DNA of 63,123 nucleotides, counting the filler, from Nemertoderma westbladi (Eukaryota > Animalia > Xenacoelomorpha), in NCBI GenBank assembly GCA_032718475.1. It is 3 parts of 3 records of this genome, joined end to end, with 100 filler letters (N's around TTAATTAATTAA, not from the genome) between each part and the next. Parts side by side here need not be neighbours in the genome. Positions count along the whole stretch, not along the records: positions 21,699 to 45,664 come from JAUCBJ010000269.1; 2 more parts are not named here. One strand, 5' to 3'. Below are positions 16,527 to 45,764 of the stretch, piece by piece. A program made the position numbers and the translations under genes. The notes beneath the pieces were generated by a model. The model made no database searches and was not told the origin of the DNA. It worked only from the letters and a program-made list of their open reading frames with translations. Position 1 is the first letter of the stretch, and each line of letters begins with the position of its first letter.

Positions 16527-16667
16527 CTGAAACAATTAAACAAACAAATATCAGTGATCGCCGTTATAGATTTTATTTTGATTGCAATAATCTTTCGACG
16601 AGTAACATTTAACAACTGTCGAAAAATGAATTAAGAACGCCGTAAACAATGTCTTAATTTAATTTTC

Positions 16668-18753: not shown

Positions 18754-19158
18754 ATGGAGAACATTCCATACGCTTTCGTTGATACTCAGCTGATTGCTCC
18801 CTGGGCAGAAGGTCGAGGTTTCTTCCGCACCATGTATGCTAATACGTCTAGCAACATTACCAAGGTGCAACGAACTTCCATCGGACATCTTGCCTTTCAG
18901 GAATACGGATGGAATTTCAAAGTCGGAAATCCCATTAACTATCAACAAGTATACGGAGACCATTATTCTCGATTATACTTTGATGGACCATTGACCACAC
19001 CTGGCGCCGTGTATAGCTTCATGAGTGTTCCACTCCGTCCCTCCTTAGCTATATACACGATCTTTGAAAACACCGCACTTGCCGGTTGGCTAGCCGATGT
19101 GTGCAGTCGTACTATACGCGCCCGCCCATCCATTAATACTTGGGACCAAACTCGCTAA
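18754..19158 (+). CDS. Hypothetical 134-aa protein, probably part of the LTR-element internal region
   Basis: ATG-initiated ORF of normal composition overlapping the start of the 478-aa frame; no motif recognised. Confidence 0.35.
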   Translation: MENIPYAFVDTQLIAPWAEGRGFFRTMYANTSSNITKVQRTSIGHLAFQEYGWNFKVGNPINYQQVYGDHYSRLYFDGPLTTPGAVYSFMSVPLRPSLAIYTIFENTALAGWLADVCSRTIRARPSINTWDQTR

Positions 19159-20533: not shown

Positions 20534-20611
20534 CTGTTTAGAGTATTTACGTATATTAGAAACTGTGATTTTGTATATTTTATAGAATCAAATCCCATTT
20601 TCTGGGAGCGG

Positions 20612-21598: not shown

Positions 21599-21698
21599 NN
21601 NNNNNNNNNNNNNNNNNNNNNNNNNNNNNNNNNNNNNNNNNNTTAATTAATTAANNNNNNNNNNNNNNNNNNNNNNNNNNNNNNNNNNNNNNNNNNNN
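21599..21698. other. Scaffold gap, 100 nt with TTAATTAATTAA spacer
   Basis: N-run with an artificial all-frame stop linker in the middle. Confidence 0.97.
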
Positions 21699-23401
21699 GT
21701 AAATCTGGAATACCAGATATCTCACAAGGACTCTCACCTCTCTTGCAGAGAGCGATACGTCACTACAGTTCCTGGAATCGGCTCTGTAAAGCTGTCACCT
21801 ATTTAAAACGATGTTTTCACCATCGTTACTCCGGGACAAAGACCCATAGTGATGATGCTCCATCAACATCTGCACGAGTCCATGTTGTTAAAGACCTTCC
21901 CCAATACAAGATATCCGACAGGTTTCTAAAGGAGAAGATCAGTTACCAGGAGCATGATGAAACCAACAAACAGATGCTGAGACTCCTACAATGTTATGAG
22001 GATTCCGATAAGTATTTCCTGTTGTTAAGAAATCCGCAGATGCGCTTAAGGGATCGCTTCTCTAGTACCATGATAGATGGGTTAATACGTGTTGGAGGTC
22101 GGCTCACCAACGCCCCGTTATCCTTTGACACTAAGTTTCCCATACTCATTAGAAATCTTGATATACAAATCAAGATGATTGTAGATGTTCATAGCAAACT
22201 GTACCATGCTGGTAGAGAACGAGTTCTGAGCGAAATTCGAACTCGCTACTATTTTTATAAACCCCGTAGGGCTCTGAACCAAGTTCTTAGGAACTGCATA
22301 CCCTGTAGGAAAGCATTCAGTAGGCCTTTGACACAGCGAGAGGCAGAATTACCTAGGGAAAGAGTAAGCTTCTATGAACCACCCTTTACTAATACCGGTG
22401 TGGATTTATTTGGCCCTATTGAAGTATATCGTGCCCGGACTATAGTCAAGAGATGGTGTGTCATCTTCGTTTGTATGACTTGTAGAGCTATCCATCTCGA
22501 TATGGTAAACGATCTATCCACCAACAGCTTCGTGTTGAGTTTACGACGACAGATCGCTCGCTTCGGAACCAGTAACACGATGAGATCGGATAAGGGAACG
22601 AACTTCATTGGCGCCAACAACGAAATTCAAGCTTACGTAAAGGACTGGAACAAAAGACAGGTGGACGATCAGCTAAGGATAACAGCGTCTAGCTGGACCT
22701 TCAACGCCGCCGACGCCCCTTGGTGGGGAGGAAGTTGGGAGAGATTGATTAGGAGCGTGAAGACTGCGTTCCACTTTATTGTGCCTTGTCGCGCTTATCT
22801 CACCGACGAACTATTGCGGACGTTAATGGAGGAAATCGCCGCCTATCTCAACGAAAGACCGCTTATGCCAGTCTCTTCAAATCCTGATTCCCTGGAAGCG
22901 CTAACACCCGCGCACTTTCTACTGAAGAAACCCGTAGCCATGCTCCCACGATCGGAGATCACAGACGGAGACGAGTACTGCCGTCGAACCTGGCAACTTA
23001 TGCAGTTGCTATCCCGTCGTTTCGCTGACCATTTCGAGAAACATTACCTGCCCACTCTACAACTTCGAACTAAGTGGTTTGCGCAGCAAGAAAACGTCAG
23101 CGCTGGAGACATGGTGCTTATTGTGGACCCCGATCTCCCACGTAAGCGATGGCAAACAGGACGTATCATCGAGACTTATATCTCGAGCGATGGTTTGGTG
23201 CGATCAGTAGAGCTCGTCGTCATGCGGCGGAACTTTAAGAAACCAGGGATAGTCTTTGAGACTCAACAGCTCAATCGCCCAGTGGGTCGTTTATGTTTAC
23301 TGGAAAGAGACAGAGAGCTCTCCGGAAACTATGGAAGGCAAGAAACTCTTCCCACGACCACTTCCCTAATCCAACCGACATCTAGGGACTCCCCAACTTA
23401 A
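21699..23401 (+). CDS. BEL/Pao LTR retrotransposon polyprotein C-terminus (integrase)
   Basis: GLIRVGGRL, HSKLYHAG...CIPC (HHCC), PFTNTGVDLFGP, SDKGTNF, APWWGGSWERLI, LTPAHFL, LQLRTKW, RPVGRL. Confidence 0.95.
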
Positions 23402-23419
23402 TATCGTTCGGAGTGGGCG

Positions 23420-23823
23420 TGTGACTCTATTATTTTATATTATTTTATTATTTTTATATTTATGTATGTATTACTATGTAATTTTATTATAATCGTTTTA
23501 TTTAATTTAGTAGAATATTATTTAGCGATTATTTTGTAGAATAGTGCAATATATTCGTGTTTATTACGTACGTAATTACTTATATTATATTTAGTGCGAC
23601 GGCGAAGAAATAATTATTTTTTCTCTTTCCTTACTGTCCGTATTATATTATAAATACGTAACTACAGTAAGATGAAATGTCCGTACTTATTAAAGTACAA
23701 TAAAGCCACTACTATATTTAAGTATTATTGGTAGGCAGAGTATTAGGAATGCAAAGTTCAGATCCTCGTGTCTCGGCTAAACCAAGCTCTGGGTAGACCT
23801 TGGAAACGACTTGCCTCTTCACA
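23420..23823 (+). mobile_element. 3' LTR of the BEL/Pao element (404 bp)
   Basis: GGAGTGGGCG PPT just after the stop; TGTGA...TCACA inverted termini; TATAAATA (~23648) followed by AATAAA (23699). Confidence 0.72.
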
Positions 23824-23919
23824 CTGACATTGCTTCGTGCGATATTGCTCTCATACCGTATATTAAATAATACATATAGTAGCGTGATGTCCCTTTAACA
23901 GTAGCGTATAACGCAAAAT

Positions 23920-24235
23920 AAATCTGTTAAACCCTTTGACCATCTGTAATTCTAGTCGATTAAGATATCGCGGCACCCACCGATATACTTGAAAGACAAA
24001 TTCTAGAATCAGTGGTTAACGTCCCCAGACAAGTTCTGGAATAAATCGGTGCCCATCTCAAATATTAATTATTTAATATTTGCAAATCTAATAAATCAAA
24101 ATCTGTAAAATTCAGATCCTTCAACAATTCTAGTCAATTAAGATATCGTAGCATTTACCGATATTCTTAAAAAAGACAATTGTCATAGAATTAAGGATCT
24201 TGTGTCCCTAGACATGTTCTAGAATCAAAATATGT
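23920..24235. repeat. Diverged ~180-bp tandem duplication
   Basis: AATTCTAGTC(G/A)ATTAAGATATCG...ACCGATAT...AAAGACAA...AGACA.GTTCT.GAAT at ~23947 and ~24126. Confidence 0.7.
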
Positions 24236-26177
24236 CCATTTAATTATCAAATAATAAAATTTCAGGGAATAAATTTAAATTCATGCCTTTTAATGAATTT
24301 AATAAATTGCCATTTTTACGCAATTTATAAAGTTCCCAAAATTCCATTAATTAATAGATCAAGGGAGCGGAGATTTATCTTATCATGCGTATGAGTGTGT
24401 GAAAGTCTCCCAAACATAGTCAATAGCCGATAAAATTCATAAAGTCATGTATAAAACAGAACATTGACTATTAAAGAATACTATTAAATAACATCCCAGA
24501 TCTGTATGCATTGGAATTACCCTAATTCTACCGCTAGCTTTGCATAATGTCACCATAGCAACAACCACGCTAGAATTAGAATTGAGTTAAAAGAACAATA
24601 GAAAGCTTGTCCCATTGAATAGCATAGGGAATAAATAGCGCACTACTAGTATCCAAGGATACATAATAATACAGTGACATTCTGGAAGGCATTGACTAAC
24701 GGACAAATGGCCCGAATGTGTGTAATTTGTGACAAGTTGTGTGTGTGGTATTTGTGAGTTTATAGGTGAATGTTACTGCTAAGGTGTGTTTACAGTAGCT
24801 AGTCGCAATCGTAAAAGTAACCTAACTCTCCAAGGAAAACCTGAAGTACATCTAAGCCTTTGGGACGGACAGTCGAGTGACTTGTGCCGGTTGTCGTTGT
24901 CGTTGTGCGGCTACGTCGTTGGCGAAAGTACAGCGGCGACGACACATCGGCGCTGAGGATCTCGTACTGTCCGGGGGTTGATTGGGGTAGGCAGCGACGC
25001 CCGCTCGCCTAAATATAAACTCATTATAATATGGATAAACTCATATATAGCAGATATGACGGAGTTGATAGAAGATGGTCTTGGTATCGGGGAGCGATAT
25101 ACTCTACTTTTACAAGCGTTTGTTGATAGCTTAATACGCGGCGACGTTAGTCCAACTGCTGCGGAGGACGATGGTCGTTATATCGAACCGCCAATGTCCC
25201 AAGAGCAGCTCGCGCGAGTTGGACTATAGAAAATTCGCTGCTCGATATACGCAGCGTAATGGTACGTATATGGGCTTCTTAACTACTGATCATCCTATCG
25301 ATTTACACAATACGGACTATGTCGACTATATATCCTGCCCAGCGGAGTCGGAACCATAAACTGAAATTCGAATGCGAAAATTCTATTCGAAATCGGCTCG
25401 AAAGAAAAGACATTAAAGAAACAAATAAACGCGGTAACTCCAACATATATTTGGAATTCTTGATAGAAGCATTGTAACAACAAATAAATATCATCCGCGT
25501 TTCCCCTACCAGACGTGCGTCTTTGGTATTATTACGGTAAATGCCCTAGACCCAGCCAATAAACGGAAAGACATAAACATCCACGGAAACGTTGTGTTAA
25601 ACACAGTTGTGTTCGTTATATTTACTGGAGTTTCGAGCGAAACTTGTTTGACGTATCACCTATGCTCACTCGGCTCTAACGATCCTAGAGTAAACCTACG
25701 ATCAGAGTCCCGGAATACTCGGTCAAACCTCCTCATTCCTTAGTTGGACCTCAGACCTGCGATCCTGGTGGTGTCGCGGATCCTCGCGGACGGTATTCAC
25801 TGTTCAAGATCTAGTGCTACCCTAACAATTAATCGGTAACACTCCGACAGTGATTTCTAGCTAGCCGCCCATCTTACCTAGCCGGATTATGACGCAGACA
25901 CCTAATATTACTATCCAACCGTATGGTCGTCCCGTTTAACGCAATACAACCCTTCATCAAGGTGAAGGAGAGCGTTGTACGACACGAGTTAAACGCTATT
26001 CTATAAAGATCAACAAAGAAACCTGCGTTTGTTCAGATAAACGTAAGTTATAACAGTAAGTCCAATCGATAAACGAATTGGCCTTATCTCAGTTCGATTG
26101 GGAAACCTCGAATCTCAAAGAAGATATCAAGCTTAGAAAACCCTATTCTCTGCGAGAGTTTTGGACGAACGTATCCC

Positions 26178-26384
26178 ATGACAAGCGGAGGAAAATCAGC
26201 TCGAGGAGAAGCATATCGAAATGGACGATACACTGACCGTAAACCCAAACCTTCTAATGCAATCATATTGCACCCTTCACCCAGGAGTTATGGCCCTCCT
26301 AGTAAAGTGGCTTCCCCCAAAGAGAAAATGACTCTTGCTAGCTTTAAAAAACTGCGTAAACGCCGTCCGCGCAAGAAAGACTAA
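26178..26384 (+). pseudogene. C-terminal remnant of the zinc-knuckle/basic-tail ORF in LTR element copy 2
   Basis: PSNAIILHPSPRSYGPPSKVASPKEKMTLASFKKLRKRRPRKKD is nearly identical to the end of 19097-20533. Confidence 0.8.
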
Positions 26385-26462
26385 CTGTTTAGAGTATTTA
26401 TGTATATTAGAAATTGTGATTTTGTATATTTTATAGACTTAAATCCCATTTTCTGGGAGCGG

Positions 26463-27480
26463 TGTAAAAGCTTTTGTGGGATAACTGATTCGTTTGCCTT
26501 GTTGGCCAGTTCCCCCCCGGTCGCTAGAATACTCTAAAGGGATCTATAGCTAAAATAGTGCAAGCTACCAGCTTATTGGCTGATTTGCTGTACGCAGGTA
26601 TCTGGGCTCTGTTTAATCGGCCAACCAGCCTAGGGAGGTTGCGTCATAGCCTTGTTTTTGTATCTCCCAATAGAATTTGAGTTAGCCTTGATTTTGACCT
26701 ATCACAGAAATTTTCCTATCTCACTGCTCTTTCTCTGTGTTGAACGGGAGCTTCGTGGAATAAGGGTAGTTGGTATCCTCGTATAGAGTAGTAGTCACGA
26801 GTTTTTAAAAGCCACGAAAGAACGGCTTTGTAGTGTTTTGTGCTTTCTGCTTTTTAGCTCAACACTAGTAGGTTTAATTATAAGGACATATATCCTTTAA
26901 CTGCTGACGTATAACTGCTGCTAAATATCACTCTGTGAATATCACTCTGCAATTTCGTAGTCACGAATCACGGCGTGACTCGGCTCAATCAATACTGTAT
27001 ACTGCTATTTGTTGTCGGTTATTCATTATATTTGTTGATGAATTATTATATTGGAATAACGAGAAATAACCCCGAAAACCCAATATTCTTGATATACCGA
27101 AGGTAAGAGAGAAAGGTTACCAATAACGATTGTGACTTATGTTAAAGTGGTTTGAAGTGAATCTAATGTTATTTGATAGACCCTACATGAGTCAGTCTGT
27201 GTTCCTTTTATATGTGACTAAAATCAGTGAAGATTGGCAGATTAGTGTGCAGTATTGTGCAGCATTGTGTACGAGTGAGTCTGTTAAAGAAGCATTTCCT
27301 AAAGAATGCGCCATATATGTGAATTATAATTAAGCCATATCGTTGTGAGTAGTTTAAGTCATAACTCTGTTTATATAAATAAAGCGCCACGTCCTAAAGG
27401 AACTGTTAATATTCCCTAAGGTGAATAATATTGTCAGAGATTATATAATACTGTCAGTCGAATAATACATTAGGCTTACA
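26463..27480 (+). mobile_element. 3' LTR (copy 2, ~1018 bp) of the unclassified LTR family
   Basis: GGGAGCGG PPT, TGTAA...TTACA termini, AATAAA near 27378, homology to 20612-21598. Confidence 0.7.
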
Positions 27481-27939: not shown

Positions 27940-30418
27940 AGTTTTTGCTGGTGACCTGAATGCCCAAATTGGCCCAGAAGACATCAAGGGTTACACCTAT
28001 AACACCAGTTCTAACAGAAATGGGTACTTACTTTTAGACCTAATGGAAGAATGTGAATTGATACCAACAAACAACACATTCGAAAAGAGTAAGGGGAAGC
28101 TATGGACCTTTCAATACCCTAATGGAACCAAAGCACAACTGGATTACATCCTCATAAACAAAAAGTGGAGAAACAGCATGATCAACTGCGAGGCATACAG
28201 CTCGTTCAACCTAATTGGTTCGGACCACAGAAGTGTGACCGCAGAGATCAGACTCAGTTTGAGAGCCTGCAAACCCAGGACAAGCAAGCAAATCAAATAT
28301 GACTGGGAAAATCTTAGAACTGACAATGCTGTAAAGGATGCTTATACAGTAGAAGTTCAAAACCGCTTTGAAGCACTTCAGTCAATGGATGAAGACCAAT
28401 CCACCAATTCAATATACCAGAATATAATAACAGCCCACAAGGAATCAGCTAAGAGGCATATCCCCAAGAAACCCAAACGAAAACAATATGTGCCATGGCA
28501 AAACTCTGAGGTTACTTGTAAGAGAGAAGATCTTAAGATAGCCTACAAAGTTAAAACCGAACAACCAACAACCGAAAACATTAACAAGGTTGAGAAAGCT
28601 AAGGACGATCTTAAATTGGCCTACAACATCAGCCAGGAAAAGTACATACAGGATAAAACTGAAGCAATTACAACTGCTCACATACAGCAACAATCAAGAC
28701 TTACCTGGCAAACTGTAAATGAGGTATCTGGTCGGAAAAGTTGTGCAAAGGGGCGCCTCAAAGACGATAGTCCTGAAGAACGTGTTGGGAAGTGGAAAAA
28801 TCACTTCAGCAACTTGCTTGGGCAGCCACCCAACATCGAGGTCAGCCCTACAAGGAAAATATATGACAAGACACTACCTATAGAAACAGGGGACTTCACA
28901 CCTGCCGAACTCCAAAGAAGCATTAAAAGCATGTCCAATAATAAAGCGAGTGGATTAGATGAAATCCCAGCGGAGGTATGGAAAACCGGAGTGCTAAACA
29001 GACCATTATTGAATGTTTGCAACCGGATGTTAAAAGGGGAAAAGCCACCACCAATTTGGACTAAAGGTCAACTAAAGCCTCTCCCCAAGAAAGGAGACCT
29101 CGGCATACCAACAAACTATCGTGGGATCTGTCTGATTGTGGTAGCTGCCAAAATATACAATAAAATGAATGGGAGAATCTTTTAGGCTCGTTAAGCCAAC
29201 GAATGCTTGTTCACCACCATGTGATCTTCCACAGTAAACCCTTCCACTCTTTAATTAATAAAATGATTCTATATAGGATTAGGCCTCACATAGAGAAACT
29301 ACTGCGTAAGAGCCAAAACGGATTTCGACCAAGTAGATCAACAATAGCTCAGATACTTGCACTACGGAGACTGATTGAAGGAATTAAGTCAAAGAATCTC
29401 CCCGCTGTCATGACTTTTGTGGACTTCAAGAAGGCATTCGACTCCATCCATAGAGGTAAAATGCTTGAAATCCTAAGAGCTTATAGAATACCAGAAGTAA
29501 TTGTTGCTGGCATTGGATTGTTATATTGTGAGACAGAAGCGCAGGTACTCTCACCAGATGGTGAAACTGAGTTTTTCTCAATCCTGGCTGGCGTACTGCA
29601 AGGTGACACATTAGCGCCATTACTATTTGTAATTGTGCTGGATTACGCAATGAGTACGGCCACAAAGACCTGGGATTCACACTTCAAGAACGCAGAAGTA
29701 GTAGATATCCGGCAACTACAGTCACAGACACCGACTTTGCGGATGATATCGCCCTGCTCTCTAATACCCTAGCAGACGCACAGCTTCTACTAAATAAAGT
29801 GGAGAGGGCTGCTAAGGAGGTTGGATTGCATATAAATGCTACAAAGACCGAATTCATGACCTTTAATGTTGATGGAAACTTGACAACCATTGATAATAAT
29901 CAACTAAGGAAGGTCGATGACTTCCAGTACCTTGGATCATGGATAGAGAGTAGCAAAAAGGACATAGAAGTTAGGAAAGCAAAGGCTTGGGTAGCTCTAT
30001 CAAAAATGGATACCATCTGGAAATCAGATCTCTCCAGGCACCTGAAGACTAAGTTCTTTCGAGCCACAGTGGAAAGTGTATTTTTATATGGGGGTGAGAC
30101 CTGGACACTGACTAAATCACTTGAACAACGAATTGATGGTTGCTACACAAGACTACTAAGGGCAGCCCTAAACATCAGCTGGAGACAACGCATGACAAAC
30201 GCCGAGCTTTATGGTACAATACCACCTGTATCAACCACCCTCCGTGAACGCAGATTAAGATTCAGTGGGCACGCTGGCGAAGTAAAGACGAGGTCATACC
30301 AGATCTACTTTTCTGGCAACCAACTCATGGAAAGCGTAGTCGTGGACGACCGGCCATAACATATATAGATCAACTTGAAAGGGATACTGAACTTTGGAGA
30401 AACGAAATTGCGACAACT
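27940..30418 (+). mobile_element. RTE family B, long copy (APE C-half + RT), disrupted
   Basis: AGDLNAQIG, LDYIL, SDHR, QGDTLAP, FADD, FQYLGS; broken by an 88-bp insert and frameshifts. Confidence 0.95.
29169..29256 (+). mobile_element. 88-bp insertion with 10-bp target-site duplication, containing a monomer of the 63-bp minisatellite
   Basis: AATAAAATGA at 29159-29168 and 29257-29266; the empty site is present in the RTE copy at ~15500-15550. Confidence 0.85.
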
Positions 30419-30639: not shown

Positions 30640-31985
30640 CGTTCGTGGGGCCTTCGCGCAGCACGAGGCCCAGTTATGAGATACAAATTAAAATTGAGCG
30701 ACTGTATCACAAAATCAGGTTTTGAGAAATTTACCCACACCACCAATCAATCCAAGAAAGGGGGACAGTACGTGTTCACCCCTTTTAATCTCTCCACCCC
30801 CCCCACCCTTCCCAACCACCAATACATAACCGCGACATCTACCACCCACGGAAGGGTAGAACGAACTTATTTCCAATCGCACGTTCAATATGCAAAGCCA
30901 GGTGGTGTATAGGAATATAGTCAACGCCGTACTCGTCTTAATTAAGCGTCGTTGCGCTCGTCCTGTTTTGTATTTAAATATATTTCCTAAACGCAGACTG
31001 GCAATCTTTATAATTATGGATACGTGCAATATGCGAAACCAGGAATGGTTTATAGGAATATAATCAATGCAGAACGCAGTACTAAATGCAGTCGATGCAG
31101 TAATGATATTCAAATAATTAATTTAATACCAGTACCCTCTGTTAATGCCTCAGTGTAAAAACTTAGACAATTCAACTACAAAGAAATCCCATCAAAAAAT
31201 AATAAGCCCAATATTTATGAGGAAAAAACAAGTATGGATATAAATAAGTCTTCTGCAGTGGTAAAATGTTATTGACTGACATTTATTAAACGAGATCTGT
31301 CTAACACGCAATAACACAATAATAGACTGAATAGTAGGGAATTCAGATTTCCATCTCGTTAGCTAGCTATGGCCAATCTGTCTACCGGCCTGTACACATG
31401 TGGTTACTTACATTCGCATTCCCATTGAAGAGCAACTGGCTGTTCTACACACACCAAACATCCTTCCCATCCTATGTACCAGCACTGAGCCAACTTGGAT
31501 GTTAACCAATAAATGAGCAGTATTTAATGAGAATCAATTTTTTATGCCGTTTTAATTACTTTAGATCAATTAAAGACACAATTATTAAAGCAAATCACTT
31601 GAACTAATTAAAAACTATAATAGAATGGAGTATGTGGATTACATCTGTATAATTTTTAAGTATAATTATTTAAATCTTATACTGTAAAACAATTAATTTC
31701 CTTTAAAAGGCAGGTTGAAAATGGTGTTTTCACCGTAATCAACTTAATTAACGAATTAACTGCTATTATCTTAGCTTCTCGAAGGCCACACGGAAATTCT
31801 ACTTGGAAAATTTCTAAACTTTTGCCAAACAACATGTGTACCAAGTTTGGATAGATTTCATCAAAGATTGGCCGAGTTATTAACGTTTAAAATTGAACGC
31901 GACAGAACGACAGAACGACAGAACGACAGGTTGATTAATGGTACCACTACGCTAAGGCTCACTCACTTCGTGGCTCGCCCCACAT
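30640..31985 (-). mobile_element. Non-autonomous DINE-1/HINE (Helentron)-like element
   Basis: GTGGGG...CCCCAC subterminal inverted motif, terminal hairpin GGGCCTTCGCG-CAG-CACGAGGCCC, (GACAGAAC)3 repeat; both ends shared with 50338-51305. Confidence 0.5.
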
Positions 31986-32350: not shown

Positions 32351-32376
32351 AGAGCGTTTAAACTAAGATTTTACCG

Positions 32377-34040
32377 CTACTACTACTAGGATCGGCATGC
32401 TGCATTGCAGCTGCATTTTTAAGAATGATGTGCCGGCTTATCGACAAAATTGCACCGCCACAACTCCCTATCACCCATGACAGGTCATCCGCATCTTTAA
32501 GGCCAGTGTCCTTTAAGATGCGTCTCAAGAAAGTCATGGGCTGTCCACCATGCTTATTCACTCCATGAGGCTGCCAAAGTACAAGATTATGCACTGGCTG
32601 GTCCTCACGGCGAAAGCATTGTCCTGCAAAGCGGAGGCGATTTGGTTCTAGTGTCAAGCTTGGGGGAACCAATGAGACACCTCCAATGTTATATAGTGTC
32701 TGATTGAAGATGTGTGCATTGTACTTGACACAATAAACCCGGCGTAGCATTCTTGTGAATGTGCCATCCAGAGATTTGGTGTCCTCAGCAGTTAGAGCCC
32801 AGCATGGACTCCCATAGAGGAGTACTGGAACTACTGCTGCTCTAAATAATCGGACCTTAAGTTTCCGATTATTTCTCGGTGACTTCCAAATCCTGGAAAG
32901 CCTATTCAAGGCTGCCCATGCCTTTCCCTTACGTATTCGTAGTCAACCACAATTATGAACAAGAATGGTGCAAGTGTGTCTCCCTGGAGGACGCCCCATA
33001 ACACTTCAAATGGTTCTGTGTCACCATCAACAGTAGACACAAATGTTGTCCAACCATCGTATACTGATCTGATTGCTGCAATAATTTCATCAGGAATCCC
33101 ATATAATGAAAGTATGCTGAACATACGTAAGCGAGAGACTGAATCAAAGGCCTTGAAGAAATCAACAAAGATAACAGCCAGATGCCCGTCTTTCTTTTTT
33201 GATAACTCTTCAATTATCCTTCTAAGTGCCGAAATGGGCTCCATGGTCCCACGACCTTTACGGAACCCATTCTGATTTCCACGGAGCAGTCTCTCAATGG
33301 GATCCCTGATGCGATTTAATAGAATTCTATTGTATAGCTTTGCAGCAATCGAGATCAATGAGATTCCCCGAAATGAACCATAGAGTGTTAGGTTGCCCTT
33401 CTTGGGAAATGGCACCAACTTATTTGTTTTCATTTCTTGTGGGACTCTTGTTGTTCGGTACATGTCTACTATGATGGGATAGATGAGCTTTAAACACTCA
33501 GGTATTTTAAAGACCTCAGGGGGAACACCATCTACTCCACTGGTACGATTGGTCGTAATGCTCTTTGCAGCAGCCTTCACTTCTGCAAAGGAGATATCGC
33601 CAATGGGAATATCTGGGAGTACAGACTCAGAAACTTTTACTTCTATAAAGTTATCAGGCAATACCCTGTCATTATTGAGGAGCTTTTCAAAGTGGGCCTT
33701 CCAACCATTGAGGCGATCGGCTGGTGATTCTGCCTTAACCTTGGTGGTTGGTTGGCTTTTCCGCCCAATAAGCAAGTTGATCGATTTCCATGCCTGGGAT
33801 GATTGCCTGCTGTCGTCAGCATCATTGATGGCATCAACCTGTTGGTTTATTAGCTCCTGTAAATTAACAGAGTACTGCCTGTTCAGAGACCTAGATGCAG
33901 CCTTAACTGCATTCTTGGCCGCTGTAGTCTGTTTGAGTCGGGAATCTTTCTGCGCCTTGTAGAGGTCGTTTCGGCACTTCTGAATTTTGTTGTCAGTCCA
34001 GGGGACCATTTTACCGCGCTGGTGTATAAACCCCTTCAAT
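32377..34040 (-). mobile_element. RTE family A, long copy with internal deletion of the catalytic RT segment
   Basis: GNQNGFRKGR, FVDFFKAFDS, QGDTLAPFLFIIVVDY joined directly to the KAWAALNR region at ~32938 (no ADD motif); GATCCTAG(TAG)n tail. Confidence 0.93.
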
Positions 34041-34221
34041 CTCAGCCGGAACTCGATGAAATTAAAAACGGTTTTCAGATCGTGATCAGCACACCTTTTT
34101 ACATTTTATGAACGTGTTTATAGAAAATTATTTTTTTGAGTCACCAACCCTATTATTTAATATAGAGCTCATAGATTTAATAGGAAAACGCGAAGGAGTA
34201 ATTGTGAGCGCTCTGAATGTT

Positions 34222-37200
34222 ACATACCAATGTGCTTTCCTATGAGTACTCATTCACATTTATTTACTCATGTGCTTTCCTATGAGTACTCATTCAGATT
34301 TACTTACCCATGTGCTTTCCTATGAGTACTCATTCACATTTACTTACCCATGTGCTCTCCTGTGAGTACTCATTCACATTTACTTACCCATGTGCTTTCC
34401 TAAGAGTACTCATTCACATTTACTTACCCATGTGCTCTCCTATGAGTACTCATTCACATTTAGTTACCCATGTGCTTTCCTATGAGTACTCATTCACATT
34501 TAGTTACCCATGTGCTTCCCTATGAGTACTCATTCACATTTACTTACTCGTGCTTTCATATGAGTACTCATTCACATTTACTTACTCATGTGCATTCCTT
34601 ACTCATTCACATTTACTTACCCATGTGCTTTCCTAAGAGTACTCATTCACATTTACTTACCCATGTGCTTTCCTAAGAGTACTCATTCACATTTACTTAC
34701 CCATGTGCTTTCCTAAGAGTACTCATTCACATTTACTTAGGCAGTGTGCTTTCCTATGAGTACTCATTCACATTTAGTTACCCATGTGCTTCCCTATGAG
34801 TACTCATTCACATTTACTTACCCATGTGCTCTCCTATGAGTACTCATTCACATTTAGTTACCCATGTGCTTTCCTATGAGTACTCATTCACATTTACTTA
34901 CCCATGTGCTTTCCTATGAGTACTCATTCACATTTACTTACTCGTGCTTTCATATGAGTACTCATTCACATTTACTTACTCATGTGCATTCCTTACTCAT
35001 TCACATTTACTTACCCATGTGCTTTCCTAAGAGTACTCATTCACATTTACTTACCCATGTGCTCTCCTATGAGTACTCATTCACATTTACTTACCCATGT
35101 GTTCTCCTATGAGTACTCATTCACATTTAGTTACCCATGTGCTTTCCTATGAGTACTCATTCACATTTACTTACTCGTGCTTTCATATGAGTACTCATTC
35201 ACATTTACTTACCCATGTGCTTTCCTATGAGTACTCATTCACATTTACTTACCCATGTGCTTTCCTATGAGTACTCATTCACATTTACTTACCCATGTGT
35301 TCTCCTATGAGTACTCATTCACATTTAGTTACCCATGTGTTCTCCTATGAGTACTCATTCACATTTACTTACCCATGTGTTCTCCTATGAGTACTCATTC
35401 ACATTTAGTTACCCATGTGCTTTCCTATGAGTACTCATTCACATTTACTTACTCGTGCTTTCATATGAGTACTCATTCACATTTACTTACTCATGTGCAT
35501 TCCTTACTCATTCACATTTACTTACCCATGTGCTTTCCTATGAGTACTCATTCACATTTACTTACCCATGTGCTTTCCTATGAGTACTCATTCACATTTA
35601 CATACCAATGTGCTTTCCTAAGAGTACTCATTCACATTTACTTACCCATGTGCTCTCCTATGAGTACTCATTCACATTTACTTACCCATGTGCTTTCCTA
35701 TGAGTACTCATTCACATTTACTTACCCATGTGCTTTCCTATGAGTACTCATTCACATTTACTTACCCATGTGCTTTCCTATGAGTACTCATTCACATTTA
35801 CTTACCCATGTGCTTTCCTATGAGTACTCATTCACATTTACTTACCCATGTGCTTTCCTATGAGTACTCATTCAGATTTACTTACCCATGTGCTTTCCTA
35901 TGAGTACTCATTCACATTTACTTACCCATGTGCTTTCCTATGAGTACTCATTCACATTTACTTACCCATGTGCTTTCCTATGAGTACTCATTCAGATTTA
36001 CTTACCCATGTGCTTTCCTATGAGTACTCATTCACATTTACTTACCCATGTGCTTTCCTATGAGTACTCATTCACATTTACTTACCCATGTGCTTTCCTA
36101 TGAGTACTCATTCAGATTTACTTACCCATGTGCTTTCCTATGAGTACTCATTCACATTTACTTACCCATGTGCTTTCCTATGAGTACTCATTCACATTTA
36201 CTTACCCATGTGCTCTCCTATGAGTACTCATTCACATTTACTTACCCATGTGCTTTCCTATGAGTACTCATTCACATTTACTTACCCATGTGCTTTCCTA
36301 TGAGTACTCATTCAGATTTACTTACCCATGTGCTTTCCTATGAGTACTCATTCACATTTACTTACCCATGTGCTTTCCTATGAGTACTCATTCACATTTA
36401 CTTACCCATGTGCTTTCCTATGAGTACTCATTCAGATTTACTTACCCATGTGCTTTCCTATGAGTACTCATTCACATTTACTTACCCATGTGCTTTCCTA
36501 TGAGTACTCATTCACATTTAGTTACCCATGTGCTTTCCTATGAGTACTCATTCACATTTACTTACCCATGTGCTTTCCTATGTGTACTCATTCACATTTA
36601 CTTACCCATGTGCTTTCCTAAGAGTACTCATTCACATTTACTTACCCATGTGCTTTCCTATGAGTACTCATTCACATTTACTTACCCATGTGCTCTCCTA
36701 TGAGTACTCATTCACATTTACTTACTCATGTGCTTTCCTATGAGTACTCATTCACATTTACTTACCCATGTGCTTTCCTATGAGTACTCATTCAGATTTA
36801 CTTACCCATGTGCTTTCCTATGAGTACTCATTCACATTTAGTTACCCATGTGCTTTCCTATGAGTACTCATTCACATTTACTTACCCATGTGCTTTCCTA
36901 TGAGTACTCATTCAGATTTACTTACCCATGTGCTTTCCTATGAGTACTCATTCACATTTACTTACCCATGTGCTTTCCTATGAGTACTCATTCAGATTTA
37001 CTTACCCATGTGCTTTCCTATGTGTACTCATTCACATTTACTTACCCATGTGCTTTCCTATGAGTACTCATTCACATTTACTTACCCATGTGCTTTCCTA
37101 TGAGTACTCATTCACATTTACTTACCCATGTGCTTTCCTATGAGTACTCATTCACATTTACTTACCCATGTGCTTCCCTATGAGTACTCATTCACATTTA

Positions 37201-40200
37201 CTTACCCATGTGCTTTCCTAAGAGTACTCATTCACATTTACTTACCCATGTGCTCTCCTATGAGTACTCATTCACATTTACTTACCCATGTGCTTTCCTA
37301 TGAGTACTCATTCACATTTACTTACCCATGTGCTTTCCTATGAGTACTCATTCAGATTTACTTACCCATGTGCTTTCCTATGAGTACTCATTCACATTTA
37401 CTTACCCATGTGCTTTCCTATGAGTACTCATTCACATTTACTTACCCATGTGCTTTCCTATGAGTACTCATTCAGATTTACTTACCCATGTGCTTTCCTA
37501 TGAGTACTCATTCACATTTACTTACCCATGTGCTTTCCTATGAGTACTCATTCACATTTACTTACCCATGTGCTTTCCTATGAGTACTCATTCAGATTTA
37601 CTTACCCATGTGCTTTCCTATGAGTACTCATTCACATTTACTTACCCATGTGCTTTCCTATGAGTACTCATTCACATTTACTTACCCATGTGCTTTCCTA
37701 TGAGTACTCATTCAGATTTACTTACCCATGTGCTTTCCTATGAGTACTCATTCACATTTACTTACCCATGTGCTTTCCTATGAGTACTCATTCACATTTA
37801 CTTACCCATGTGCTCTCCTATGAGTACTCATTCACATTTACTTACCCATGTGCTTTCCTATGAGTACTCATTCACATTTACTTACCCATGTGCTTTCCTA
37901 TGAGTACTCATTCAGATTTACTTACCCATGTGCTTTCCTATGAGTACTCATTCACATTTACTTACCCATGTGCTTTCCTATGAGTACTCATTCACATTTA
38001 CTTACCCATGTGCTTTCCTATGAGTACTCATTCAGATTTACTTACCCATGTGCTTTCCTATGAGTACTCATTCACATTTACTTACCCATGTGCTTTCCTA
38101 TGAGTACTCATTCACATTTACTTACCCATGTGCTTTCCTATGAGTACTCATTCACATTTACTTACCCATGTGCTTTCCTATGAGTACTCATTCACATTTA
38201 CTTACCCTTGTGCTTTCCTATGAGTACTCATTCACATTTACTTACCCATGTGCTTTCCTATGAGTACTCATTCACATTTACTTACCCATGTGCTTTCCTA
38301 TGAGTACTCATTCACATTTACTTACCCATGTGCTTTCCTATGAGTACTCATTCACATTTACTTACCCATGTGCTCTCCTATGAGTACTCATTCACATTTA
38401 CTTACTCATGTGCTTTCCTATGAGTACTCATTCACATTTACTTACCCATGTGCTTTCCTATGAGTACTCATTCAGATTTACTTACCCATGTGCTTTCCTA
38501 TGAGTACTCATTCACATTTAGTTACCCATGTGCTTTCCTATGAGTACTCATTCACATTTACTTACCCATGTGCTTTCCTATGAGTACTCATTCAGATTTA
38601 CTTACCCATGTGCTTTCCTATGAGTACTCATTCACATTTACTTACCCATGTGCTTTCCTATGAGTACTCATTCAGATTTACTTACCCATGTGCTTTCCTA
38701 TGTGTACTCATTCACATTTACTTACCCATGTGCTTTCCTATGTGTACTCATTCACATTTACTTACCCATGTGCTTTCCTATGAGTACTCATTCACATTTA
38801 CTTACCCATGTGCTTTCCTATGAGTACTCATTCACATTTACTTACCCATGTGCTTTCCTATGAGTACTCATTCACATTTACTTACCCATGTGCTTCCCTA
38901 TGAGTACTCATTCACATTTACTTACCCATGTGCTTTCCTATGAGTACTCATTCACATTTACTTACCCATGTGCTTCCCTATGAGTACTCATTCACATTTA
39001 CTTACCCATGTGCTTTCCTATGAGTACTCATTCAGATTTACTTACCCATGTGCTTTCCTATGAGTACTCATTCACATTTACTTACCCATGTGCTTTCCTA
39101 TGAGTACTCATTCAGATTTACTTACCCATGTGCTTTCCTATGAGTACTCATTCACATTTACTTACCCATGTGCTTTCCTATGAGTACTCATTCACATTTA
39201 CTTACCCATGTGCTTTCCTATGAGTACTCATTCACATTTAGTTACCCATGTGCTTTCCTATGAGTACTCATTCACATTTACTTACCCATGTGCTTTCCTA
39301 TGAGTACTCATTCACATTTACTTACCCATGTGCTTTCCTATGAGTACTCATTCAGATTTACTTACCCATGTGCTTTCCTATGAGTACTCATTCACATTTA
39401 CTTACCCATGTGCTTTCCTATGAGTACTCATTCACATTTACTTACCCATGTGCTTTCCTATGAGTACTCATTCAGATTTACTTACCAATGTGCTTTCCTA
39501 TGAGTACTCATTCACATTTACTTACCCATGTGCTTTCCTATGAGTACTCACTCAGATTTACTTACCCATGTGCTTTCCTATGTGTACTCATTCACATTTA
39601 CTTACCCATGTGCTTTCCTATGAGTACTCATTCACATTTACTTACCCATGTGCTTTCCTATGAGTACTCATTCACATTTACTTACCCATGTGCTTTCCTA
39701 TGAGTACTCATTCACATTTACTTACCCATGTGCTTCCCTATGAGTACTCATTCACATTTACTTACCCATGTGCTTTCCTATGAGTACTCATTCACATTTA
39801 CTTACCCATGTGCTCTCCTATGAGTACTCATTCACATTTACTTACTCATGTGCTTTCCTATGAGTACTCATTCACATTTACTTACCCATGTGCTTTCCTA
39901 TGAGTACTCATTCACATTTACTTACCCATGTGCTCCCCTATGAGTACTCATTCACATTTACTTACCCATGTGCTCTCCTATGAGTACTCATTCACATTTA
40001 CTTACCCATGTGCTTCCCTATGAGTACTCATTCACATTTACTTACCCATGTGCTTTCCTATGAGTACTCATTCAGATTTACTTACCCATGTGCTCCCCTA
40101 TGAGTACTCATTCACATTTACTTACCCATGTGCTCTCCTATGAGTACTCATTCACATTTACTTACCCATGTGCTTCCCTATGAGTACTCATTCACATTTA

Positions 40201-40418
40201 CTTACCCATGTGCTCTCCTATGAGTACTCATTCACATTTACTTACCCATGTGCTTTCCTATGAGTACTCATTCACATTTACTTACCCATGTGCTTTCCTA
40301 TGAGTACTCATTCACATTTACTTACCCATGTGCTCTCCTATGAGTACTCATTCACATTTACTTACCCATGTGCTTTCCTATGAGTACTCATTCACATTTA
40401 CTTACCCATGTGCTCTCC
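34222..40418 (-). repeat. 40-bp minisatellite (~155 copies, 6.2 kb) made of a BTB exon end + 5' splice site
   Basis: Minus-strand unit GGAAAGCACATGG|GTAAGTAAATGTGAATGAGTACTCATA; the first copy is the real exon end GGAGAGCACATGG|GTAAGT. Confidence 0.97.
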
Positions 40419-43400
40419 GCTCGATAATTCCGTTAGGATGGTGAGGAGATGACACACATTCTGCGGCGTCATCAGATTCAAGAGATGTTGGGAACAGGTG
40501 TCAGCCAGATCGGACAGTCCCAGTTCCCCAGACAGTCGTAGACAGTCCAACACGTCGCCGTCCGTGATGGTTATCTGTCCGGAATAGATATATCGCAACA
40601 CCAAACGGAATATCCGCGGATCCATGTCCGTTTGTTTCACAACCAAAACATCACCGGGTCGCTTCTCCTGGAACAGTTCCGCTTCCATCCTGGAATAACA
40701 GATCAATTAATTAATGTTATCGGAATTTAAATAATTCGATTCCAAACTCTGATTGTGTGTTCCATGCTCCATGGAGTTTATGTTATCTTATAAAACGAGG
40801 ACTAAAAAATGGCAAGTTTATTCTACCGACCGCATTGCGCTACATTGTAGACACTGTAAATTACATTTACCGACACCACTGAATGTCTGACGGTAATATT
40901 TCTGCAATAACATCATCATCCCCGATTCTATAACCTCTCATTATTAATTAATTACTATGAAAAAGTAATTTTTTCCATATTTTTTTAATCTGTCTACACA
41001 GCCTCCATCTTGTGTCTATTGAAACTGGGCTCGCAATCTTCAAGCTGAAAATATTTTTATAATTTATTACCCGGTATTGGTGTTATGGGTGAAAATATAT
41101 CCCTCAGTGCTCAGTCAGTCACATACAGTAGGCCTACTGCTGCCAATCCGAAGGAGCTGGATAAAATAAAAGCTCAATTCTTAAATCCACTCCTGGTAAC
41201 GCCTCTGCTACACTAGCGGACCACTTGGTGGAGTCCACCACACTAGTGGAAGATATCGCCAGTAGCAACCTAGGAATTTTCAACTCAGAATCCCTGGAGA
41301 CTTACCGTGTTTTCAGAACAGAGAGAACAAACGGGATTCACATATAATTCTTGGAAAATAAGAAATCAAGCCAATAGACATATTATAATTACAATAACGA
41401 CTGCATAGCACACTACTGGTGTGGCGGACAGAGGCGGCGCTAGACCAAAACAAGTGGGGGGGTGGGGGGGGGGGGGGGGGGGGTCAGTCAATTTGCACCG
41501 ACTGGAAATTGAATTTACAGCGACTTAATTGAAACATTTGAACTGTGCATGTATTAGTAATAATTTATATCAATTAATAAAAAATAATTATAGAATTAGC
41601 ATACCTCGCTTCCGCTCAGTAAATAAAATACCTCGAGAATAGCAGAAAAAAGTTATACTTTTTTCCCCTTTAATACGTAATTTTATTCTTAAATGGGTAC
41701 TTTTTATTGCCCAATTCTTTAATAAAATATAGAGCGATAGGCCTAGTGTTACAAAATAAATAACTATATAGTATTTTACTATATTGCTGCTTCCATAGTT
41801 ATTACAATTAAAATTACTGTACTCTTCAACTCCTGATACTGCCTAAGGCCGCGTTCACACTACCGAGTCAAAGTCAAAAGAAAATAAATATAGCTAGCTA
41901 GCAATAATAAATAATAAGGCCTAATATAATACATAAGGGCGTTCTAGAAAAAAATAAATTTCGTGTGATTTGTTTTACATTTTGTCTTTTGACTTTGACT
42001 CGGTAGTGTGAACGCGGCCTTACTCAATGTGAAACGATTTATAGTGTTCTTGAATTTTGAATAATTATTACGTAACTAATAAAGACCCACTTAACAACAT
42101 ACACAAATATTGGATATTGAGTTCCGTTTTGGAGTTCGCCTTGCAGACACTAAAGTTGCAATAAACTTGGCAATAACACATAAGTGTGTGAATGGATTTT
42201 GCTCTAATTACGTGCAAACCTTTCAACACATTTAATATAATTTATGGTAATCAGCTATCACAATACACTATCACACTTCGCAAGAACTTAATCAGGCCCT
42301 CTTTAGTAACTTTTATGACTTTAACTTTTTTTATTTATATTTATATACTGTATATAAAATTTTAAACATTGGTACATACGACACCGTCCCGGCCTACAGC
42401 TACACTTACTCATCGGTCTGGTACATACGAAACCGTCCCGGCCTACAGCTACACTTACTCATCGGTCTGGTACATACGACACCGTCCCGGCCTACAGCTA
42501 CACTTACTCATCGGTCTGGTACATACGAAACCGTCCCGGCCTACAGCTACACTTACTCATCGGTCTGGTACATACGACACCGTCCCGGCCTACAGCTACA
42601 CTTACTCATCGGTCTGGTACATACGACACCGTCCGGGCCTACAGCTACACTTACTCATCGGTCTGGTACATACGACACCGTCCCAGCCTACAGCTACACT
42701 TACTCATCGGTTTGGTACATACGACACCGTCCCGGCCTACAGCTACACTTACTCAACGGTCTGGTACATACGACACCGTCCCGGCCTACAGCTACACTTA
42801 CTCATCGGTCTGGTACATACGACACCGTCCGGGCCTACAGCTACACTTACTCATCGGTCTGGTACATACGACACCGTCCCGGCCTACAGCTACAATTACT
42901 CATCGGTTTGGTACATACGACACCGTCCCGGCCTACAGCTACACTTACTCATCGGTTTGGTACATACGACACCGTCCCGGCCTACAGCTACACTTACTCA
43001 TCGGTCTGGTACATACGACACCGTCCCGGCCTACAGCTACACTTACTCATCGGTCTGGTACATACGACACCGTCCCGGCCTACAGCTACACTTACTCATC
43101 GGTCTGGTACATACGACACCGTCCCGGCCTACAGCTACACTTACTCATCGGTCTGGTACATACGACACCGTCCCGGCCTACAGCTACACTTACTCATCGG
43201 TTTGGTACATACGACACCGTCCCGGCCTACAGCTACACTTACTCATCGGTTTGGTACATACGACACCGTCCCGGCCTACAGCTACACTTACTCATCGGTC
43301 TGGTACATACGACACCGTCCCGGCCTACAGCTACACTTACTCATCGGTCTGGTACATACGACACCGTCCCGGCCTACAGCTACACTTACTCAACGGTCTG

Positions 43401-44178
43401 GTACATACGATACCGTCCCGGCCTACAGCTACACTTACTCATCGGTCTGGTACATACGACACCGTCCCCGGCCTACAGCTACACTTACTCATCGGTCTGG
43501 TACATACGACACCGTCCCGGCCTACAGCTACAATTACTCATCGGTTTGGTACATACGACACCGTCCCGGCCTACAGCTACACTTACTCATCGGTTTGGTA
43601 CATACGACACCGTCCCGGCCTACAGCTACACTTACTCATCGGTCTGGTACATACGACACCGTCCCGGCCTACAGCTACACTTACTCATCGGTCTGGTACA
43701 TACGACACCGTCCCGGCCTACAGCTACACTTACTCAACGGTCTGGTACATACGACACCGTCCCGGCCTACAGCTACACTTACTCATCGGTCTGGTACATA
43801 CGACACCGTCCCGGCCTACAGCTACACTTACTCATCGGTCTGGTACATACGACACCGTCCCGGCCTACAGCTACACTTACTCATCGGTCTGGTACATACG
43901 ACACCGTCCCGGCCTACAGCTACACTTACTCAGCGGCTCTGGTACATGCGACACCGTCCCCAAATAATAATCTTGTGAGCAGTAATTCTCTCCTTGTGGT
44001 CTCCGATCTCAAAGACCATGTCGGAGTGTACCTTATCGTCTAGAAGTCTCTCGTAATCGAGCACCAGCACATCGGTCATACAGACTACAGTCGGCATCGA
44101 TTCCTCGTGGTCAGCCCCAAGTATTTGGGCCAACGTCTCCCCCCCTGCCAGATGTGTATGGCTACTGGATGAGGACAT
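40406..44178 (-). CDS. BTB/POZ(-BACK) domain protein; coding exons 44178-43930 and 40689-40406; frame defect at the first donor as assembled; downstream exons not found
   Basis: DYERLLDDKVHSDMVFEIGDHKERITAHKIIIWGRC and MDPRIFRLVLRYIYSGQITIT...LGLSDLADTCSQHLLNLMTPQNVCHLL are the two halves of a BTB domain plus the BACK start. Acceptors TTTTGCAG (44189) and TATTCCAG (40690); GTAAGT donors. Confidence 0.82.
41846..42020. mobile_element. MITE with perfect 36-bp TIRs, flanked by TA
   Basis: TA|AGGCCGCGTTCACACTACCGAGTCAAAGTCAAAAGA ... exact reverse complement|TA. Confidence 0.9.
42369..43960 (-). repeat. 49-bp minisatellite (~32 copies) made of a BTB exon end + 5' splice site
   Basis: Minus-strand unit GGGACGGTGTCGTATGTACCAGACCGATGA|GTAAGTGTAGCTGTAGGCC; first copy is the exon end GGGACGGTGTCGCATGTACCAGAGCCGCTGA|GTAAGT. 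Confidence 0.97.
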
Positions 44179-44333
44179 TGTAATATCTCTGCAAAAGATG
44201 TAGTACAGGCAATCAGTTACACAACCGAGAATAACATAAGAAAATAAGTAAGAAAATAACTGTAGTTTGATTATGTTTCATTTTCAGAACACCATACTTG
44301 TAAAGTATGCCACACAGAGACATCAACACTAGT

Positions 44334-45181
44334 AGGCGTTAGAACATCCTAATTTCAAGCAGTCTCGGATTGGACGGAGGCGTTAGAACATCCAAATTTC
44401 AAGCAGTCTCTGTCTCTGATTGGACGATTAAAATATTTGAGTATTCTACCAATAAGAAAGCGCTTGCATTTAGGAGGTTCTAATGACAATAATAAAGGCA
44501 TTAGAGACTGTTAATTGCAAGTTTTCAACTACTGTCACTATGATGATATCGGGGTTATCAGATTAGGTTATCAGCGGTTGGTTGGTTAGGTCAAGCGGTC
44601 AAGGTATTATCTCTTCTCAGCGTAAGGAAATTTCGCGATAATATCGTTTATAAGTCGTAGTATATCCATTAGATGAGAGAAGCTGATGTATGTAAAGTAG
44701 ACGTAACTTAGGTTTAATGTGAGCGTTCTTTATTTTATCAGGGTTATTAAAGGTGTTTGTTTTAGTTTGTGAAAGGGACCGACATGTTGAATGTTGTATG
44801 TAGTGATTGGTGCGATTTTTATATTGAATATTACCATTCCAGTTTCGATGGAGTGAGAGAAACAGGATATGGTTTAGGGGTCCCATAAAACGCTGTAGGT
44901 GAATTGAGTTTAGAGTTTGATATGTTATGTTTGAGTAAATCTACGGGATGGGATGGTTGTAGGGTAATCCTACTTGGATACTTACATAACAGGTTTTATG
45001 TCTGCCAATTCTTTTATTTTTAAACATCCCGCCAACATCAACAACTTCTAAACTTGAAACTAGCAGTCTTTAATGGCATATTTCTTGTCATTAAAAGCAC
45101 CAAATTCAAGCACTATATGATTGGTAGGCCATTTGTCTGACCAATCAGTGACTGCTTGAAATTAGGATGTTTTAACGCCTC
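44334..45181. mobile_element. Inverted-repeat-bounded element enclosing a degraded LINE 3' fragment
   Basis: AGGCGTTAGAACATCCTAATTTCAAGCAGTC (twice, 44334 and 44378) and its reverse complement at ~45150-45181; 44617-45020 reads like a LINE C-terminus on the minus strand. Confidence 0.5.
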
Positions 45182-45452
45182 CTCAGCGACACCACAGTGA
45201 GGCTAAAACTAGGGAGGCCTACTGTATGTAGTCAGACAGTAGGCCGGTAGTACTGTAGGCCTACACGTACAGTATTAATTATACTGTATACAATACTTAT
45301 AGATAGTTACTTCCTAGTAGTTCCGTAATGAAACTACTAATTCAACATATTATATAAACTTGTATTAGAAAAACAGTCACAAAAATGAAATACAGTATAT
45401 AGGCCTGCGTAGGCCTAAATAAAACAAGTCCTTTTACCATCAATCTGCTCAC

Positions 45453-45520
45453 CTGTAAAGTGTACCGCGGTTGCTGATCTGCCAACGTCAAGAATTTGCT
45501 GAAATTTATATTGTAGAAGT
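45453..45520 (-). other. Possible non-coding first exon of the BTB gene (5' limit unknown)
   Basis: Strong donor TACAG|GTGAGC at 45453/45452 upstream of the acceptor at 44189, which precedes the ATG by 10 nt. Confidence 0.4.
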
Positions 45521-45664
45521 AGAGTGTAGAAAGATATATTTTATTAGAAACGGTTTACTAGAAAAGGCCTATTAAGTAACAATCCCTTCCGATATAAATA
45601 CAGTACAAATCAAATTACAAAAAATAAATAGAACAACAAATATTTGTTATAATGTATAAGCCTA

Positions 45665-45764
45665 NNNNNNNNNNNNNNNNNNNNNNNNNNNNNNNNNNNN
45701 NNNNNNNNTTAATTAATTAANNNNNNNNNNNNNNNNNNNNNNNNNNNNNNNNNNNNNNNNNNNN
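45665..45764. other. Scaffold gap, 100 nt with TTAATTAATTAA spacer
   Basis: Same artificial N-run format as 21599-21698. Confidence 0.97.

What the first reader, a model, noticed from the sequence alone, without database searches (positions are those of the whole stretch)
34222..43960. Two consecutive splice donors of one gene have each been amplified into a large tandem array
Seen: the 40-bp unit is the last 13 nt of the BTB exon ending at 40406 plus the first 27 nt of its intron. The 49-bp unit is the last ~30 nt of the exon ending at 43930 plus the first 19 nt of its intron. The units are otherwise unrelated, each array starts exactly at the real junction and extends only into the intron, and together they place nearly 190 mostly intact GTAAGT donors in the pre-mRNA. 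Inference: two independent arrays at adjacent donors suggest a process that seeds amplification at 5' splice sites (e.g. transcription/U1-linked breaks, slippage or rolling-circle repair). Possible consequences are U1 titration, protection from premature polyadenylation, or donor competition leading to NMD. The RING and crystallin donors in this window have no such arrays.
Basis: partly seen in the sequence, partly recalled or inferred. Interest (0 to 1): 0.85.

Follow-up and report, generated by a model that had tools for sequence, protein, structure and literature searches.

The report
Two "mirage" splice-donor minisatellites, BTB gene
In an animal BTB-domain gene, two neighbouring exon ends with their splice signal are copied head-to-tail about 32 and 155 times into the next intron, yet the spliced contigs from the one sample seen use only the first signal, so this is likely a tolerated example of a repeat type already known from lancelets ("mirages") and several human genes.

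Summary
Both arrays are real: 49 bp x 32.4 (42370-43960) and 40 bp x 155.5 (34220-40418). Each unit is an exon end plus intron start of a minus-strand BTB gene; 171 of about 188 units keep GTAAGT. Contigs of two DNA samples hold the array words at high depth; one sample may be the assembly's source. One run's spliced contigs leave both exons at the first donor, in frame, and do not cover the arrays. Any later donor would meet an immediate stop. Donor positions are not protected from change. "Starts at the junction and extends only into the intron" follows from any junction-spanning duplication. This is the lancelet "mirage" / human F7, CBS, 6-16 type. The scan has noted it before, in many other genes of this genome (often larger) and in other animals; those notes are unchecked. 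New here: the window's exon-side 49-bp copy has one extra base that creates a stop and is absent from the spliced contig (likely polishing error, possibly back-conversion from the array), and the next spliced exon is not in the window. Why arrays favour exon edges is open; no genome was held to test enrichment. New member of a known kind; low interest.

The parts
43930..44188 (-). BTB exon 1 (ATG at 44178); its last 30-31 nt are the exon part of the 49-bp unit
   Evidence: tblastn of BTB relatives, best E 3.6e-8; X4 contig covers 43935-44171 and splices to exon 2; the 5' boundary is predicted from sequence only
43934..43934 (-). Extra base in the window's exon-side copy; gives an in-frame TGA before the donor; absent from the spliced contig
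   Evidence: window; loose ends (X4)
42370..43960 (-). 49-bp donor-spanning array, 32.4 copies, 30 GTAAGT; ends 21 nt into an exon-derived part
   Evidence: array depth in DNA runs X1-X3, none in X4
40690..43929 (-). Intron 1 (first donor at 43929), spliced out whole in X4
40406..40689 (-). BTB exon 2 (284 nt); its last 13 nt are the exon part of the 40-bp unit
   Evidence: Pfam PF00651 E 5e-9; both ends marked by X4 loose ends
34220..40418 (-). 40-bp donor-spanning array, 155.5 copies, 141 GTAAGT; homogeneous first three quarters, more diverged last quarter with repeated blocks of variant units
   Evidence: X1 contig of depth 1601 on the unit
34203..34240 (-). Diverged last copy of the 40-mer: 18 of the first 21 nt match; the rest is not clearly related (6.5% of random stretches score as well)
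32358..34105 (-). Non-LTR retrotransposon fragment beginning about 115 nt after the array (class assigned from recall of reverse-transcriptase motifs)
   Evidence: ORFs

Best explanation
These are two 'mirage' minisatellites: a short DNA piece spanning an exon end and its splice donor is repeated head-to-tail at each of two introns, likely grown by slippage and unequal exchange, and likely tolerated because splicing takes the first donor, as the one set of spliced contigs shows. Shown: the unit anatomy, multi-copy presence in DNA runs, first-donor splicing in run X4, and an immediate stop behind every later donor. Inferred: a first local duplication; growth and homogenisation of the interior by unequal crossover or gene conversion; exclusion of the boundary copies; neutrality. 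The arrays run only into the intron because the 5'-most copy of any junction-spanning duplicate becomes the working exon end. Why seeds fall on exon edges more often than chance suggests is not settled. My preferred inference is that the two locus versions are alike in exons and unlike in introns, so exchange between them breaks down at exon edges.
For: Anatomy. An X4 contig joins exon 1 to exon 2 at the first donor, in frame. Three X4 records with 0, 2 and 4 differences leave exon 2 at 40406 into the same next exon. X4 depth is 0 on the array bins. Reading past either first donor meets a stop at once. Signs of turnover: mean differences per unit by quarter are 0.66, 0.42, 0.53 and 1.84 (Spearman 0.31); blocks of variant units repeat; one interior copy at 35613 carries the last copy's two donor-side variants; the 49-bp consensus differs from the transcript's exon end at 5 of 30 positions. 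The same features are described for lancelet mirages (PMC3087553 passages; PMC3902484 passage) and human F7 (PMC1557585 abstract, Introduction and Discussion).
Against: The splicing evidence is one sample, contigs only, and contigs drop rare forms; the tool labels that run 'DNA?'. Its main transcript carries the second locus version's marks (40671; the 44171-45525 joint), and I could not show directly that this version carries both arrays. The window's own copy has a stop in exon 1 and lacks the next spliced exon, so it may be a dead or mis-assembled copy on which arrays cost nothing. Plain random seeding fits poorly (about 2e-4). Length variation between alleles was not tested.
Confidence: 0.75

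Rival explanations
1. A donor-specific, transcription-linked process (polymerase pausing, R-loops or U1-associated breaks at 5' splice sites) seeds the amplification.
For: Two of 4 large arrays span donors, about 2e-4 by chance. Both sense strands are purine-rich and G-skewed (0.47 and 0.33), which favours R-loops (recalled). Unchecked notes list many donor arrays in this genome.
Against: The one-sided geometry needs no special process. Acceptor-side mirages exist in lancelets and, by unchecked notes, in this genome. The units share no fold: the 40-mer gives z -4.8 and -5.6, the 49-mer z +1.7 and +1.5. Nothing here measures breaks or R-loops.
Confidence: 0.15
2. The arrays are selected devices that bind U1 snRNP, guard the long intron from premature polyadenylation, or tune the gene by sending part of the RNA to NMD.
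For: 171 GTAAGT sites, with 6-7 of 9 consensus matches at the first donors. Every later donor would give a premature stop. In the 40-mer RNA fold the donor lies in an open loop.
Against: In the 40-bp array 8 of 18 distinct substitutions fall in the 9 donor positions of 40 (binomial p 0.04; post hoc, and one complex event contributes two of them), so donors are not protected. The 49-bp array shows no bias (1 of 7). The stem around the donor is broken in 24 copies. X4 shows no unit-containing contig. Cellular U1 far outnumbers these sites (recalled).
Confidence: 0.05
3. The arrays are assembly artefacts.
For: The window looks like a mosaic of two locus versions (exon interiors match one, flanking introns the other), has a one-base discrepancy in exon 1, and lies on a 24-kb piece between two gaps.
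Against: DNA runs of two samples carry the 40-mer at very high depth (X1 contig 1601 against 3-17 for neighbouring unique contigs; the window's own word multiplicity is 76-85) and the 49-mer at several-fold depth. Variant units recur in ordered blocks. One of the samples may be the assembly's source, and exact lengths are not confirmed.
Confidence: 0.03

Closest known systems
Lancelet 'mirage' minisatellites (Adh3, globins BflGb6 and BflGb9, troponin C, PGBD5). Seen: passages of PMC3087553 and one passage of PMC3902484. The Adh3 paper (Canestro et al. 2002) was not held and is known only as cited there.
   Same: The unit spans an exon-intron boundary; many but not all copies keep the splice signal; splicing is normal; the interior is homogenised and boundary copies are excluded; the generating mechanism is stated to be unclear.
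   Different: 32 and 155 copies here against 3 and 6 in BflGb6; both arrays are at donors; length instability and somatic variation were not tested here.
Human F7 intron 7 37-bp VNTR, with the CBS, 6-16, LMNB2 and PDGF arrays it cites (PMC1557585; abstract, Introduction and Discussion read)
   Same: The first monomer holds the exon end and the true donor; identical pseudo-donors follow; the most upstream site is used.
   Different: 5-25 copies in the human cases; in CBS and 6-16 two later sites are also used, which was not seen here; two consecutive introns of one gene are affected here.

Membership tests
Mirage minisatellite (features as in PMC3087553) | Tandem unit spans an exon-intron boundary of the host gene | tested here: met
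   13+27 nt and 30+19 nt; boundaries fixed by spliced contigs
Mirage minisatellite (features as in PMC3087553) | Many but not all copies keep the splice signal | tested here: met
   171 GTAAGT in about 188 units
Mirage minisatellite (features as in PMC3087553) | Regular splicing is not disturbed | tested here: met
   First donor used at both introns in X4 contigs; one sample, contigs only, and phase with the arrays not shown
Mirage minisatellite (features as in PMC3087553) | Concerted evolution inside, boundary copies excluded | tested here: met
   96-97% matches inside; last 40-bp copy and first 49-bp copy diverged
Mirage minisatellite (features as in PMC3087553) | Length instability between haplotypes or cells | not testable with these tools
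   Only short-read contigs were served; their depth is not a copy number
F7-type donor VNTR | True donor followed by identical pseudo-donors, the most upstream one used | tested here: met
   129 copies share the first donor's nine-base context in the 40-bp array, 30 in the 49-bp array; first one used
F7-type donor VNTR | Variable copy number among individuals | not testable with these tools
   No long reads among the 6 runs listed
Dispersed repeat resembling the exon by chance | Unit present elsewhere, independent of the exon | tested here: not met
   No copy outside the arrays in the 63-kb window; the rest of the genome was not held

The most novel reading that the evidence does not exclude
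This animal has a genome-wide process that turns exon edges into kilobase satellites. Its two locus versions are about 94-96% alike in exons but cannot be aligned a few dozen bases into introns. Strand exchange begun in an exon would collapse and re-prime at the edge of homology, seeding junction-spanning arrays at donors and acceptors alike. The arrays could then write back into the exon, and the extra base at 43934 would be such a hit that killed this copy. This would supply the missing mechanism for lancelet mirages and be testable in one phased genome.
Probability: 0.2. Interest if true: 0.65.

Novelty: new member of a known kind. Interest (0 to 1): 0.2.

Why it matters
As a single locus it matters little: it adds two more junction-spanning minisatellites, larger than the published ones but smaller than others the scan has noted in the same genome. 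It is a natural test of first-donor choice against about 140 identical competitors, far beyond the 5-9 in F7. The open question is why such arrays crowd at exon edges. PMC3087553 calls the mechanism unclear, and five literature searches turned up no genome-wide enrichment test. A repeat-rich, highly variable genome like this one could settle it.

Tried and rejected
Whole genome: none held, so no enrichment test. Word-index search for longer relatives of exon 2: 0 of 132 candidates passed. The HMMER search gave 111 distant BTB proteins, 23-50% identical over matched stretches, and no orthologue; 6 of them scanned have mixed architectures, so the gene's subfamily is unassigned. No RNA holder was listed; X4 was recognised as spliced only by laying it. 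The next spliced exon was sought in the window by a 20-base motif (0 matches at 3 mismatches; best 6 mismatches), by peptide and by tblastn of the 111 relatives, and not found. The candidate small exon at 31411-31470 is not it. Hairpin-driven slippage as a shared cause was rejected: only the 40-mer folds. A processed retrocopy as the source of the spliced contig was rejected: the second version in DNA runs has an intron at the exon 2 acceptor. Whether the 88 letters at the 44171-45525 joint equal the window minus a 1264-nt intron (89 expected) is unresolved; the letters were not shown. Whether DNA runs hold the extra base at 43934 is unresolved, because the indel table was cut. Passages of PMC12783039 and PMC10078293 did not bear on junction-spanning arrays. 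Listings were seen as listings only. No supplements were read; those of PMC3087553 hold the mirage alignments.

Full report
Observation. TRF finds a 40-bp array at 34220-40418 (155.5 copies, 96% matches) and a 49-bp array at 42370-43960 (32.4 copies, 97%). On the minus strand they begin in the last 13 nt of an exon ending at 40406 and the last 30 nt of an exon ending at 43930. Exon 2 is BTB by Pfam (E 5e-9). Exon 1 has no Pfam hit alone but is hit by 5 of 111 BTB relatives in tblastn (best E 3.6e-8). The arrays hold 141 and 30 GTAAGT, 171 in about 188 units. The units share only 9 of 10 bases around the donor and occur nowhere else in the window. With 9 candidate donors, the chance that at least 2 of the window's 4 large arrays span one is about 2e-4. 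The donor list is my own, partly unverified, and the scan reads very many windows.

Are the arrays real? Six runs were listed, none on record as RNA and all kept as short-read contigs; I laid 4 of them. In DNA runs X1-X3 (two samples, one of which may be the assembly's source) the 40-mer words are very deep. One X1 contig has depth 1601 against 3-17 for unique neighbours, while the window's own multiplicity for these words is 76-85. The 49-mer bin is several-fold above unique depth. Depth is not a copy number, so presence is shown and length is not.

Which donor is used? Run X4 is labelled 'DNA?' but covers only exons and dispersed repeats and holds spliced joints. One 643-nt contig runs from exon 1 straight into exon 2 at the first donor (loose ends at 43935 and 40689). 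Three records with 0, 2 and 4 differences leave exon 2 at 40406 into one further exon, whose 30 visible bases continue the frame without a stop (reverse complement read by hand). X4 depth on the array bins is 0. Reading past either first donor meets a stop within two codons, so later donors could only give truncated products. Limits: one sample, contigs drop rare forms, and the main transcript carries the marks of the second locus version. No DNA contig was listed leaving exon 2 into another intron start (table 7), which weakly suggests that both versions enter the 40-mer.

The window's exon-side 49-bp copy is 50 nt and ends the frame with TGA before the donor. The spliced contig lacks that base (43934) and is in frame. 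The extra base sits where the array consensus has the same letter, so it is either a polishing error from array reads (my guess, about 60%) or a real partial conversion from the array; the indel table that could tell was cut. DNA runs hold two versions of the locus. They differ at 8 sites in 44037-44167 (X1-X3), 5 sites in 43968-44030 (X2) and 10 sites in 248 nt of exon 2 (X3). One version diverges wholly about 43 nt into intron 1 from the acceptor, and upstream of 44171. The window matches the transcribed version inside the exons and the other version in the flanks, so it is likely a mosaic consensus of alleles or paralogues. The exon that follows exon 2 in X4 is not in the window. The gene lies on a 24-kb piece between gaps at 21599-21698 and 45665-45764, so that exon may be in a gap or elsewhere, or this copy may be truncated.

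How the arrays evolved (inferred from sequence). The 40-bp array is homogeneous over its first three quarters and more diverged in the last (0.66, 0.42, 0.53 and 1.84 differences per unit), with repeated blocks of variant units. Its last copy matches 18 of the first 21 nt and then departs. The commonest unit takes its start from that last copy and the rest from the exon-side copy, as a crossover between two older copies would give. One interior copy carries the last copy's variants. The 49-bp consensus differs from the transcript's exon end at 5 of 30 positions, so the exon copy is outside homogenisation. Both arrays end about 21 nt into a unit. That the arrays start at the junction and run only into the intron is not evidence of a directed process: after any tandem duplication across a donor, the 5'-most copy is the one continuous with the exon.

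Function. Donor positions are not protected: 8 of 18 distinct substitutions in the 40-mer fall in 9 of 40 positions (p 0.04, post hoc and inflated by one complex event), and 1 of 7 in the 49-mer. The 40-mer has a 12-base palindrome and a short stem around the donor (z about -5); the 49-mer has no fold (z about +1.5); 24 copies break the stem. Both sense strands are purine-rich, the one feature that fits an R-loop idea. Nothing here supports U1 titration, polyadenylation guarding or regulated NMD.

Comparison. PMC3087553 (passages) describes lancelet 'mirages': tandem repeats spanning 5' or 3' exon boundaries, normal splicing, concerted evolution with boundary exclusion, mechanism unclear. PMC3902484 (one passage) adds PGBD5 and troponin C. 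PMC1557585 (abstract, Introduction, Discussion) shows first-donor choice in the F7 VNTR and lists CBS, 6-16, LMNB2 and PDGF. Four of five mirage features were met and one could not be tested. The word 'mirage' reached me from earlier notes and, in the same turn, the paper came up in my own search. Those notes, unchecked, report the same thing in many other genes of this genome, at donors and acceptors, with up to about 2,100 copies, and in molluscs, sharks and an annelid. Searches showed no genome-wide enrichment study; most subscription papers are not searched.

Verdict. Real, ordinary in kind, likely neutral (0.75). New member of a known kind; interest 0.2. The live question is the apparent bias to exon edges. 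The boldest reading not excluded is seeding at the edge of homology between divergent haplotypes, with write-back into the exon (probability 0.2, interest 0.65).

Noticed in passing
window 16666-17827 and 29208-29250: A 63-bp array (18.5 copies) begins directly after the 3' tail of a LINE fragment on the minus strand; one isolated 45-nt copy sits inside another LINE piece. Likely mobile-element derived, not junction-derived.
   Followed up: partly
window 5868-6590: A 30-bp array (24 copies) is read in frame as proline/alanine/serine-rich repeats at the start of an intact 1265-aa LINE-type ORF.
   Followed up: no
window 44171-45525: A second locus version in all 4 runs replaces 1353 nt by 88 letters here; removing the predicted 1264-nt intron would leave 89. 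It may be an intron presence/absence difference or an insertion.
   Followed up: partly
window 41844-42022: A short element with about 38-nt inverted ends in intron 1, MITE-like; seen by eye.
   Followed up: no
window 31411-31470 (-): A small AG...GTAAGT-bounded, cysteine-rich candidate exon in the phase that would fit exon 2, but not the exon joined in X4.
   Followed up: partly
window 16132-16527 (-): A terminal exon with a weak EGF match (E 0.04) and a hydrophobic end; its gene is unknown.
   Followed up: no
window 11350-11437 (+): An isolated RING-like exon, found by pattern; no array at its donor.
   Followed up: partly
window 19094-27400: A retroelement-like region: an integrase-like ORF at 21647-23401 (label from recall) and a segment repeated near 20300-21600 and 26070-27400.
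   Followed up: no
window 21599-21698 and 45665-45764: Two scaffold gaps, each two runs of 44 N around a 12-base spacer; the BTB exons lie on the 24-kb piece between them.
   Followed up: no
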